A stretch of DNA of 64,000 nt, from NCBI GenBank assembly GCA_004321885.1, contig SCQK01000004.1, forward strand, positions 22,684 to 86,683, in the 5' to 3' direction. The position numbers and the translations under genes are program-made. The notes below the pieces were generated by a model. The model saw nothing but the letters and a program-made list of their open reading frames with translations. It was not told where the DNA came from and made no database searches. This document shows, piece after piece, positions 44,412-45,332 of the stretch. The DNA comes from Patescibacteria group bacterium. GTDB lineage: Bacteria; Patescibacteriota; Patescibacteriia; Magasanikbacterales; GWA2-37-8. Every line of letters starts with the position of its first letter. Position 1 is the first letter of the stretch.

Positions 44412-44441
44412 GGCAGTATTTTATCACTCTTCAAAACAAAA

Positions 44442-44470
44442 AACAACCTCTAAAACGAGGTTGTTTTTCT
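44442..44470. terminator. Bidirectional hairpin AACAACCTC-TAAAAC-GAGGTTGTT with T-runs on both sides
   Basis: A perfect 9-bp stem. The plus strand is followed by TTTTCT; the minus strand is followed by TTTTGTTTTG. Confidence 0.5.
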
Positions 44471-44593
44471 CGGAGAGTACTCCGACGGTGAGGGACGCTA
44501 CCTGATACCTAGTTATAATTTAGTATACACAAAAAGCCAATGTTACGCAAAAAAAGAAGGCCCCCGAACGAAAAAAAATTCGGCGATTTACGC

Positions 44594-44622
44594 TTGACTT
44601 TTATAGATAGGCGTGCTTAAAT
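44594..44622 (+). promoter_or_regulatory. Promoter of the small plus-strand gene (TTGACT-17-TTAAAT), followed by a strong SD GAAGGAGG at 44666..44673
   Basis: TTGACT 44594..44599 and TTAAAT 44617..44622. The SD lies 5 nt upstream of the ATG at 44679. Confidence 0.45.
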
Positions 44623-44678
44623 GATGGGTCTGACTAAGGTAATCGGACACAACCTTTGAAGCTTTGAAGGAGGATAAG

Positions 44679-44942
44679 ATGTTCGAGGTCGATTTGAATG
44701 GCTGGGCGCAAAAGCTAGTGGAGGGCGCGGCCAAGAGCGAATACTCGTGCAATCTGCGGTTCATTGTCCACGGTGGCCCGCTCAAGTTACACCAGTACAC
44801 GCTTCCCGATGGCCGCATGTTCTACGAGTACGTGCAAGGAGAGAAAGTGGTCGAGGCAGGCACCGTGGTCTTCCTGGCGCTCTATGGCAGCGACGGGAAG
44901 GTCGTGCATGAGTCGTTGTGGTCCGAACGTGCCATACAGTGA
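44679..44942 (+). CDS. Hypothetical 87-aa protein in a self-contained plus-strand transcription unit inserted between adk and secY; GC-richer than its surroundings
   Basis: MFEVDLNGWAQKLVEGAAKSEYSCNLRFIVHGGPLKLHQYTLPDGRMFYEYVQGEKVVEAGTVVFLALYGSDGKVVHESLWSERAIQ. Canonical SD, own promoter and terminator. No recognizable domain. Confidence 0.5.
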   Translation: MFEVDLNGWAQKLVEGAAKSEYSCNLRFIVHGGPLKLHQYTLPDGRMFYEYVQGEKVVEAGTVVFLALYGSDGKVVHESLWSERAIQ

Positions 44943-44974
44943 AGCAAATGACCACGCCCGACACCCTCGTAACA

Positions 44975-45018
44975 GCCCCGCGCAGAACACCACTGCTGCT
45001 CGGGGCGCTTTATTTTTT
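44975..45018 (+). terminator. Rho-independent terminator of the small gene
   Basis: GCCCCGCGCAG-loop-CTGCTCGGGGC followed by GCTTTATTTTTT. Confidence 0.5.
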
Positions 45019-45104
45019 AATGAAAATTATTTATTTAGCAAAATTGGTATATCTTCGTAAAAACAAAAAATCCAAACATTTAAAGAGCGGGAAAGAAAGC
45101 TGTT

Positions 45105-45142
45105 ATAACAAAACGGCTCCACAGCCCCGACTGAGTCGGGGA
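45105..45142. repeat. Family-B hairpin (GGCTCCACAGCCCCGACTGAGTCGGGGACTATGGAGCC)
   Basis: Half of the MITE-like unit (hairpin 1 only). Confidence 0.7.
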
Positions 45143-45253
45143 CTATGGAGCCAACGATTTAACAGGTGTGGCTTTTCCGCGCGCGAAAAGTGCCGCGTGC
45201 GCAACGAATTTTTGAATTTACGAGCGCGGATGGATGTGTTCGCAACGCCTTAT

Positions 45254-45268
45254 CCCGACTCAGTCGGG
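45254..45268. repeat. Short family-B hairpin CCCGACTCAGTCGGG embedded in a larger inverted repeat (GGATGTGTTC..GAACACATCC, 45228..45312)
   Basis: Nested stem-loops that also include GAGGCCTC and CTTTTCCGCGCGCGAAAAG palindromes. Confidence 0.6.
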
Positions 45269-45332
45269 ATGGCCGAGGCCTCGCGGCCGAGGAAAGTGAG
45301 AACACATCCAGACGCGTGAGTCATTACAAAAA

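What the first reader, a model, noticed from the sequence alone, without database searches (positions are those of the whole stretch)
44430..45332. A ~900-bp island between adk and secY with a self-contained small gene in the opposite orientation
- The minus-strand ribosomal/secY/adk/map operon is interrupted.
- The island holds a bidirectional hairpin terminator (44442..44470), a plus-strand promoter, a canonical SD (GAAGGAGG) and an 87-aa ORF (44679..44942) with visibly higher GC.
- It also holds that ORF's own terminator (44975..45018), family-B hairpins and a large nested inverted repeat (45228..45312).
- The layout looks like a horizontally acquired cassette, possibly a small effector, toxin or immunity protein.
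Basis: partly seen in the sequence, partly recalled or inferred. Interest (0 to 1): 0.65.

Follow-up and report, generated by a model that had tools for sequence, protein, structure and literature searches.

The report
Phage-family small gene cassette between secY and adk
The gap between secY and adk in this Patescibacteria genome holds a real, self-contained 87-aa gene from an undescribed small-protein family found mostly in uncultivated phages, sitting at a natural operon boundary next to the genome's ordinary repeat hairpins; its function is unknown and nothing supports a toxin or effector role.

Summary
secY (45333-46604, -) and adk (43752-44411, -) are 921 bp apart, and the gap carries a plus-strand promoter, Shine-Dalgarno (SD) site, 87-aa ORF, terminator and several hairpins.

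- **The ORF is a real gene.** Its codon usage is typical of native genes. It belongs to an uncharacterised family of at least 216 proteins with no Pfam, PHROG, NCBIfam or PADLOC model. A confident AlphaFold model (pLDDT 90) has no significant structural neighbour.
- **The family is phage-linked.** 41 viral contigs carry it next to terminase, portal and replication genes. A few solitary chromosomal copies share the same promoter-SD-gene-terminator layout.
- **No relative has it here.** None of about 25 relatives carries it at this junction, which is variable and already ends in a terminator after secY.
- **The closest homologue looks mobile.** Its cassette has a homologous promoter and terminator and sits as an insertion in the loop of a repeat element.
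- **The right-hand hairpins are native.** One is a REP-like repeat with four copies in the window; they are best read as 3' structures of the secY transcript.

The layout fits a horizontally acquired, moron-like cassette. A toxin, effector or immunity role is unsupported: there is no partner gene, signal peptide or homology. Interest is moderate to low.

The parts
43752..44411 (-). adk (adenylate kinase, 219 aa), the downstream flank
   Evidence: ORF list. tblastn finds orthologues next to map in relatives.
44418..44446 (-). Candidate adk promoter: TTGTTT, 17 nt ending in TGa, then TAAAAT, then 6 nt before the ATG. This would give a leaderless or near-leaderless adk mRNA. Inferred only.
   Evidence: Read from the sequence. 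adk has no SD. The same TGaTAnnnT-N6-ATG layout is seen in relative L087. Similar -10-like motifs lie just upstream of several other genes here.
44439..44468 (.). Terminator-like hairpin (12-bp arms, 6-nt loop) flanked by an A-run and a T-run. It isolates adk from upstream minus-strand transcription.
   Evidence: -17 kcal/mol on the minus strand, z = -4.2.
44594..44622 (+). orf87 promoter: TTGACT, 17-nt spacer, TTAAAT, with TGC (extended -10) at 44614-16
   Evidence: Sequence. The layout is conserved upstream of stand-alone homologues L100, L152, L156 and L158.
44666..44673 (+). Shine-Dalgarno GAAGGAGG, 5 nt before the ATG
   Evidence: Homologues carry GGAGG at the same place. An SD-like motif is seen for only 5 of 48 genes in this window when longest-ORF starts are used.
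44679..44942 (+). orf87: an 87-aa soluble acidic protein (pI 5.5), the short form of an undescribed family with the motif GLNxWA...PDGR...FLAL...ESLW
   Evidence: Codon log-likelihood ratio is 0.405 per codon, the median of native genes; none of 125 shadow ORFs reaches it. There are 51 hits by exhaustive phmmer and 216 by profile search. AlphaFold2 gives pLDDT 90 and pTM 0.79.
44975..45018 (+). Intrinsic terminator of orf87, unidirectional (T-run on the plus strand only)
   Evidence: Fold. It is about 75% identical to the terminator of the closest homologue's cassette in L152, E = 6e-4 in a small search space.
45105..45152 (-). REP-like repeat hairpin (stem 45115-45152) followed on the minus strand by GUUUUGUUAU. 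Likely terminator or 3' stabiliser of the secY transcript.
   Evidence: 95-97% identical copies at 3663, 13683 and 13776. All four lie at convergent gene ends. It folds at -33.7 kcal/mol on the minus strand against -29.4 on the plus strand because of G-U pairs.
45174..45189 (.). GC-rich palindrome TTTCCGCGCGCGAAAA
   Evidence: I11. The fold of its surroundings is not better than shuffles.
45209..45332 (-). Three-way-junction inverted repeat immediately 3' of the secY stop. It encloses a GGCC-GCGA-GGCC hairpin (a GNRA loop in minus-strand sense) and a CCCGACUGAGUCGGG hairpin. Its outer stem is unique in the window.
   Evidence: -52 kcal/mol, z = -5.1. Apart from the 15-nt hairpin core, it has no other copy in the window. 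No Rfam match.
45333..46604 (-). secY (423 aa), last gene of the ribosomal spc-type operon, the upstream flank
   Evidence: Orthologues are 67-76% identical in Patescibacteria MAGs and metagenomes.

Best explanation
The 921-bp spacer is a composite of one foreign unit and native flanking structures.

**(1) The cassette, about 44590-45020.** This is an autonomous transcription unit on the plus strand: a sigma-70-type promoter with an extended -10, a leader of about 50 nt, a strong SD, an 87-aa gene and an intrinsic terminator. The gene belongs to an undescribed family of small, acidic, soluble alpha/beta proteins. Most members sit in large uncultivated phage genomes, inside blocks of small co-directional genes near replication and packaging genes. 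A few solitary copies sit in Patescibacteria chromosomes. The unit was most likely acquired horizontally, from a phage or a small mobile cassette, and lodged antisense at the pre-existing boundary between the secY-terminated ribosomal operon and adk-map.

**(2) The flanks are native.**
- On the secY side: a three-way-junction hairpin and a REP-like hairpin with a U-rich tail. These end and stabilise the secY transcript.
- On the adk side: a terminator-like hairpin whose T-run overlaps a promoter for a probably leaderless adk mRNA.
- Together with orf87's own terminator, these insulate the three transcription units from each other.

**(3) Function of the protein (inferred, about 0.3).** It is a constitutively expressed cytoplasmic binding protein, possibly dimeric because some relatives are tandem duplications. 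It probably acts in phage-host conflict. In phages that would be host takeover or anti-defence. In the chromosomal copy it would be protection against related phages.

**Shown:** the gene is real, the family exists and is phage-associated, the cassette anatomy is conserved, and the gene is absent from relatives at this site.

**Inferred:** the direction and mechanism of transfer, transcription start and stop points, and protein function.
For: **Real gene.** The codon log-likelihood ratio is at the native median and beats all 125 shadow ORFs. GC at codon positions 1/2/3 is 0.62/0.34/0.77.

**Family.**
- 51 hits among 1.84 billion cluster representatives and 216 by profile search.
- Every member that a source names is labelled 'hypothetical', and none has a Pfam domain.
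- Named sources include Parcubacteria, Falkowbacteria, Shapirobacteria and Patescibacteria.
- The alignment has clear conserved motifs.
- AlphaFold2 with that alignment gives pLDDT 90.

**Phage association.**
- Members lie in co-directional small-gene blocks with RNA ligase, RNase H, Rad52, endonuclease VII, DUF932, Thg1 and PD-(D/E)XK genes.
- 41 IMG/VR loci carry the family.
- Their neighbours include terminase, portal, DNA polymerase, ribonucleotide reductase, topoisomerase II and primase.

**Self-contained unit.** Stand-alone homologues in unrelated contexts share the promoter layout, SD and terminator. The terminator and promoter region are homologous between the window and L152, although the proteins are only 43% identical.

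**Mobility of the closest homologue.** Its cassette is bracketed by a 25-nt inverted repeat (96% complementary). It interrupts one copy of a roughly 190-nt repeat that has four uninterrupted copies.

**Lineage-specific at this site.** No relative has it between secY and adk. Ten of 17 closer relatives instead carry a conserved co-directional gene of about 91 aa. Others have an IS30-like transposase, a racemase, Fic or a membrane protein.

**Composition.** Chromosomal solitary copies are +0.06 to +0.10 GC above their flanks. Phage copies are about 0 to +0.03.

**Native flanks.** The REP-like copies and their strand rule. Relatives have canonical terminators after secY.
Against: - Codon usage is native-like, so the acquisition is either old, or from a phage of similar composition, or the gene is simply native and lineage-specific.
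- No terminal inverted repeats flank the cassette in the window (the score is at the null level). Only a weak low-complexity direct repeat is present, TCTTC..AAAACAAAAAA at 44427 and 45051, p about 0.02.
- No integrase, transposase or phage gene was noticed near the island (gene content of the window was not annotated systematically).
- No genome closer than 76% secY identity was available, so the insertion event cannot be dated or its breakpoints defined.
- No conserved neighbour gene exists across family loci, and there is no structural or sequence link to any characterised protein. The functional part therefore rests on context only.
- Promoters, terminators and the leaderless adk start are sequence predictions without transcript data.
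Confidence: 0.65

Rival explanations
1. orf87 is an old, vertically inherited, lineage-specific native gene. It happens to lie at a variable operon boundary, and the phage copies were captured from hosts rather than the reverse.
For: Codon usage is at the native median. No mobility genes or terminal repeats flank it. Other solitary chromosomal copies exist in housekeeping neighbourhoods.
Against: It is absent from this junction in all relatives examined. Phage-context members dominate. Chromosomal copies are GC-richer than their flanks while phage copies are not. The closest homologue is a discrete insertion.
Confidence: 0.2
2. orf87 is a toxin, an immunity protein or a secreted effector.
For: It is small, solitary and accessory, with its own strong expression signals. 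One homologue lies near a MazE-like gene on the opposite strand.
Against: There is no adjacent partner ORF with coding signal. There is no signal peptide or hydrophobic segment; the maximum Kyte-Doolittle score over 19 residues is 1.06. There are no PADLOC, Pfam or PDB hits. No neighbour is conserved across family loci.
Confidence: 0.07
3. The structured right-hand part (45105-45332) is an independent non-coding RNA gene or riboregulator, not the 3' end of the secY transcript.
For: Folding is very strong on both strands, z about -8. The three-way junction carries a GNRA-type loop in minus-strand sense and is unique in the window.
Against: There is no Rfam match even at E = 10. No promoter-like site was found. 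One module is a repeated REP-like hairpin also found at other gene ends. It starts directly after the secY stop codon. No comparative support was obtainable.
Confidence: 0.1
4. The ORF is a chance open frame in GC-rich non-coding DNA.
For: It is short, and the word-index search returned only an identical copy.
Against: The coding statistics, a family of at least 216 members with conserved motifs, and a confident structure prediction.
Confidence: 0.01

Closest known systems
Phage 'morons': independent transcription units spread among phage genomes by horizontal transfer (PMC3594210, abstract)
   Same: The anatomy is the same: one small gene with its own promoter and factor-independent terminator, inserted between unrelated genes. 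The family is widespread in phage genomes. The solitary copies show a GC offset from their flanks.
   Different: This copy is not inside a recognisable prophage. It sits between housekeeping genes. In the phage genomes examined, family members lie in ordinary co-directional gene blocks, and their own promoters and terminators were not examined. No host-benefit phenotype is known.
REP / BIME-type repetitive extragenic palindromes at 3' ends of genes (general knowledge)
   Same: The 45115-45152 hairpin is a near-identical repeated palindrome found only between convergent gene ends. Its G-U pairs indicate RNA-level pairing in the sense of the upstream gene.
   Different: The sequence is unrelated to enterobacterial REPs. 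No RAYT-type (REP-associated) transposase was looked for. Its 15-nt core also forms helices inside this organism's RNase P RNA.
Small non-autonomous TIR-bounded elements and insertions into integron attC hairpins (general knowledge)
   Same: The closest homologue's cassette (L152) is bracketed by 25-nt inverted repeats. It sits in the terminal loop of an attC-like repeat that has RYYYAAC...GTTRRRY ends.
   Different: The window's copy has no detectable terminal repeats and no attC-like site. No transposase is associated with it. The integron nature of L152-L154 was not tested with an attC model.
NFACT-N domain (FbpA/PavA/RqcH N-terminus), the best structural neighbour
   Different: These scores are below the usual significance level, with 7-12% sequence identity. 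Foldseek finds nothing. This is a lead, not a relationship.

Membership tests
Moron-like autonomous gene cassette | Own promoter upstream of a single gene | tested here: met
   TTGACT-17-TTAAAT with TGC. The same layout lies upstream of four other stand-alone homologues. This is sequence-level evidence only.
Moron-like autonomous gene cassette | Own factor-independent terminator directly downstream | tested here: met
   44975-45018: stem plus T-run, -19.6 kcal/mol. It is homologous to the L152 terminator.
Moron-like autonomous gene cassette | Located within a phage or prophage genome | tested here: not met
   The flanks are secY and adk. The family itself is abundant in viral contigs.
Moron-like autonomous gene cassette | Composition differs from the surrounding genome | tested here: inconclusive
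   GC is +0.07 and GC3 is in the top 2% of native chunks, but the codon log-likelihood ratio is native-like. Other chromosomal copies are +0.06 to +0.10.
Type II toxin-antitoxin module | Two adjacent co-transcribed small genes | tested here: not met
   There is only one ORF with coding signal in 44412-45332.
Type II toxin-antitoxin module / defence system protein | Homology to known toxin, antitoxin or defence families | tested here: not met
   No hits in PADLOC, Pfam, NCBIfam or PDB.
Secreted effector / bacteriocin | Signal peptide or membrane segment | tested here: not met
   Maximum Kyte-Doolittle score over 19 residues is 1.06. The N-terminus is hydrophilic.
TIR-bounded mobile element (MITE-like with cargo) | Terminal inverted repeats flanking the unit | tested here: not met
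   In the window the best inverted-repeat score equals the shuffle mean. The feature is met in the closest homologue, L152/L154: 25 nt, 96% complementary.
Integron gene cassette | attC site (RYYYAAC...GTTRRRY imperfect hairpin) downstream of the gene | tested here: inconclusive
   None was seen by eye in 44943-45332. No attC covariance model was available.
REP-like repeat (for 45115-45152) | Multiple near-identical palindromic copies confined to intergenic gene ends | tested here: met
   Four copies at 95-97% identity, all between convergent genes.
Any Rfam RNA family (for 44412-45332) | Covariance-model match | tested here: not met
   All hits have E > 1 and lie far below their gathering scores.

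The most novel reading that the evidence does not exclude
orf87 marks a minimal, transposase-less 'promoter-gene-terminator' cassette. It would move between Patescibacteria phages and chromosomes by lodging in hairpin-rich sites such as attC-like loops and terminator or REP clusters at operon ends. Its product would be the founding member of a new fold used in phage-host conflict in the Candidate Phyla Radiation.
Probability: 0.15. Interest if true: 0.6.

Novelty: new member of a known kind. Interest (0 to 1): 0.35.

Why it matters
Small accessory genes of Patescibacteria and their phages are almost entirely uncharacterised. This work defines one such family:
- at least 216 members;
- a confident predicted fold with no structural relative;
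- a conserved expression cassette;
- a phage-to-chromosome distribution.

It also gives a concrete example of how such genes settle at operon boundaries in very small genomes. The family is a reasonable candidate for testing phage-host interaction functions in the Candidate Phyla Radiation. On present evidence, however, it is an ordinary kind of accessory gene with unknown function, not a new mechanism.

Tried and rejected
- **Word-index homology search of orf87.** It found only an identical Logan contig, which made the gene look like an orphan. The exhaustive search overturned this.
- **Family libraries and PDB sequence search.** Pfam, PHROGs, PADLOC and NCBIfam gave nothing. PDB sequence searches gave only chance-level hits: PLK4 polo-box at E = 0.15 and PIF1 at 0.05.
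- **Single-sequence AlphaFold2.** The model was poor, pLDDT 55.
- **GenBank phages by tblastn.** No match.
- **Exact look-up of adk.** Not on record.
- **Viral scan with the full alignment.** A trimmed C-terminal alignment worked.
- **Conserved neighbours of family members.** None found beyond sporadic phosphatase-like, ribonucleotide reductase and DUF932 genes.
- **Terminal repeats around the window's cassette.** None; only a weak A-rich direct repeat.
- **The relatives' 91-aa gene.** Searched for in the window and found absent.
- **Rfam on the island.** Nothing.
- **Consensus promoter and terminator scan.** Zero sites; its rules are too strict for these elements.

Full report
**1. The observation**

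The window comes from a Patescibacteria (CPR) genome. The nearest secY proteins in species-representative genomes are 67-68% identical, from Magasanikbacteria and Komeilibacteria MAGs. The nearest in metagenomes reach 76%.

secY (45333-46604) and adk (43752-44411) both lie on the minus strand, 921 bp apart.
- The A-run/hairpin/T-run at 44439-44468.
- A plus-strand promoter, TTGACT-17-TTAAAT, preceded by TGC.
- The SD GAAGGAGG, 5 nt before the ATG at 44679.
- The 87-aa ORF (44679-44942).
- A stem plus T-run terminator at 44975-45018.
- A repeated hairpin at 45115-45152.
- A nested inverted repeat at 45209-45332.

The simple consensus scanner reported none of the promoters or terminators. Its rules exclude a -10 hexamer without A at position 2 and loops longer than 8 nt.

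**2. The ORF is a real gene**

- A codon model trained on 44 long ORFs of the window gives orf87 0.405 bits per codon. That is the median of 87-codon pieces of native genes.
- The other five frames score at or below zero. None of 125 shadow ORFs reaches the orf87 value.
- GC is 0.58 and GC3 is 0.77. These are the top 10% and top 2% of native pieces. The 'higher GC' is real but modest.
- The protein has no hydrophobic segment or signal peptide.

**3. It is not an orphan**

- The fast word-index search found only an identical copy, on a 942-bp Logan contig. That contig is 100% identical to 44203-45144 and breaks inside the repeat hairpin.
- An exhaustive phmmer search of 1.84 billion cluster representatives found 51 relatives.
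- A profile of 43 of them found 216 relatives in the larger database.
- All named members are 'hypothetical'. None has a Pfam domain, and none matches Pfam, PHROGs, NCBIfam or PADLOC.
- The consensus is GLNxWA..V, then an optional insert of about 35 aa, then YPLxKYTxPDGRxYxExVQ..PWSSGP..FLALxD..G..V.ESLW. The window's protein is the short form.
- The family is acidic, with a median pI of 4.95.
- Some members are tandem duplications of the domain. This hints at a dimeric working unit.
- With the alignment, AlphaFold2 gives a confident model: pLDDT 90, pTM 0.79, a short helix packed on an antiparallel sheet.

**4. Where the family lives**

Phage contexts:
- Members on long contigs mostly sit in runs of small co-directional genes. 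Neighbours include RNA ligase, RNase H, Rad52, endonuclease VII, DUF932, Thg1 and PD-(D/E)XK genes.
- A scan of IMG/VR with the C-terminal domain found 41 viral loci, many on contigs of 85-190 kb and one on 318 kb.
- Within 5 kb of these, neighbours include terminase, portal, DNA polymerase, ribonucleotide reductase, topoisomerase II and primase.
- No neighbour is conserved across loci.
- Cultivated phages in GenBank have no homologue. This fits uncultivated hosts.

Solitary chromosomal contexts:
- A minority are solitary genes among housekeeping genes, with long intergenic spacers on both sides (L099, L100, L156, L158).
- These copies and the window share one architecture: TTGAC(A/T)-N14-TGC-TAtcAT, a leader of about 50 nt, a GGAGG SD, the gene, and an intrinsic terminator.
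- They are 6-10 GC points above their flanks, while phage copies match theirs. The sample is small.

**5. The closest homologue is a discrete insertion**

- P0002 (85 aa, 43% identical) occurs with an identical protein sequence in two different flanking contexts.
- The shared DNA is a 688-nt block.
- Its promoter region and terminator are homologous to the window's. The terminator is about 75% identical although the proteins are only 43% identical.
- The promoter-gene-terminator unit is bracketed by a 25-nt inverted repeat (96% complementary). It sits in the terminal loop of one copy of a roughly 190-nt repeat. Four other copies of that repeat are uninterrupted.
- Those repeats have RYYYAAC...GTTRRRY ends and follow co-oriented small genes, so they are attC-like. 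This was not tested with an attC model.
- Another short-form member lies beside an IS30-type transposase.
- In the window itself no terminal inverted repeat is detectable. Only a weak A-rich direct repeat is present, at 44427 and 45051, p about 0.02.

**6. The junction in relatives**

- Among species representatives, the secY-adk gap ranges from 22 bp to 1.3 kb. It holds unrelated inserts such as a racemase and a membrane protein. In one locus Fic and a transposase follow secY and no adk was detected.
- Among 17 closer metagenomic loci, the gap ranges from 110 bp to more than 2.9 kb.
- Ten of those carry a conserved co-directional gene of about 91 aa just upstream of adk. That gene is absent from the window.
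- The closest relative carries an IS30-like transposase in the gap.
- None carries orf87.
- In the closer relatives and several others, secY is followed directly by a canonical stem plus T-run terminator.
- The operon therefore already ends after secY in this clade. The island occupies an operon boundary that is a recurrent landing site. It does not break a transcription unit.

**7. The hairpins**

- The 45115-45152 hairpin is a REP-like repeat with copies at 3663, 13683 and 13776, 95-97% identical. All lie between convergent gene ends.
- In each case the strand on which G-U pairs complete the stem is the sense strand of the adjacent upstream gene. Here that is the minus strand: -33.7 kcal/mol against -29.4 on the plus strand.
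- On that strand the hairpin is followed by GUUUUGUUAU. I read it as the terminator or 3' stabiliser of the secY mRNA, not as part of the cassette.
- The three-way junction at 45209-45332 starts immediately after the secY stop codon. It contains a GNRA-capped hairpin in minus-strand sense. Its outer stem is unique in the window, and it has no Rfam match. Its role beyond 3'-end structure is unknown.
- On the adk side, the T-run of the 44439-44468 hairpin overlaps TTGTTT-17(TGa)-TAAAAT-N6-ATG. adk has no SD. Relative L087 has the same TGaTAnnnT-N6-ATG arrangement.
- Several other genes here also have a -10-like hexamer 5-8 nt before the start codon. adk is therefore probably leaderless. This is an inference.

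**8. Verdict**

- The anatomy matches phage morons, which are independent transcription units spread by horizontal transfer (PMC3594210). This copy, however, lies in a housekeeping context.
- The toxin, effector or immunity suggestion has no support.
- The hairpins to the right are native genome furniture.
- The protein's function remains unknown. The best inference, at about 0.3, is a small cytoplasmic binding protein acting in phage-host conflict.
- This is a new member of a known kind of element, carrying an undescribed protein family. Interest is moderate to low.

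Noticed in passing
window 15267-15725 (-), with hairpins at 15378, 15508 and 15691; also 3257, 3677, 13697, 13790, 45126 and 45254: The 15-nt hairpin CCCGACUNAGUCGGG occurs 9 times in the window against 0.08 expected. Three copies lie inside the RNase P RNA gene, where they form P3, the tip of P12 and the P15-17 region. The same module is therefore reused in a ribozyme, in REP-like repeats and between cistrons.
   Followed up: partly
window 5831, 11798, 26127, 26832, 42490 and 47547 (each about 39 nt): This is a second repeat family, TTTTCCTCCCCTT..AAGGGGAGGA..AAGGAGGGGTA: a hairpin plus a GGAGG-rich tail. 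One copy encodes the C-terminus of the ruvX-like ORF (42486-42896). Another lies just upstream of rpsE.
   Followed up: no
whole window (48 genes checked): Using longest-ORF starts, only 5 of 48 genes have an SD-like motif at the proper distance. Several, including adk, have a TANNNT hexamer 5-8 nt before the start codon, which suggests frequent leaderless mRNAs. orf87's strong SD is atypical for this genome. Caveat: the start codons were not curated.
   Followed up: partly
L083-L086, L091 and L093-L097 (for example L093:777-1052): A conserved gene of about 91 aa (MGLFGF.SKYSK.EH...GDGKISL.QIY..L..L.NQNKIS..DRDG) lies immediately upstream of adk, co-directional with it, in 10 of 17 closer relatives. 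It has no Pfam match and is absent from the window.
   Followed up: partly
L152:176-1780, L153 and L154: This is an array of roughly 190-nt repeats with RYYYAAC...GTTRRRY ends, each downstream of a small co-oriented gene (RidA and others). The array looks like an integron cassette array. The orf87 homologue is inserted in the loop of one repeat.
   Followed up: partly
L082:2692-3684; L155:21-974: IS30-type transposases appear twice in this story. One sits in the secY-adk junction of the closest relative. The other lies divergently next to a short-form family member (P0005).
   Followed up: no
window 38568-38631 (+) and 38653-39195 (-): A DUF3800-II RNA (Rfam RF02961, 67 bits) lies beside a low-GC (0.39) 180-aa gene. 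This is probably another accessory locus.
   Followed up: no
window 18930-18962: A 79% match to the REP-like hairpin flank lies inside a 397-aa ORF (18336-19529). It could be a chance match or an in-frame repeat insertion.
   Followed up: no
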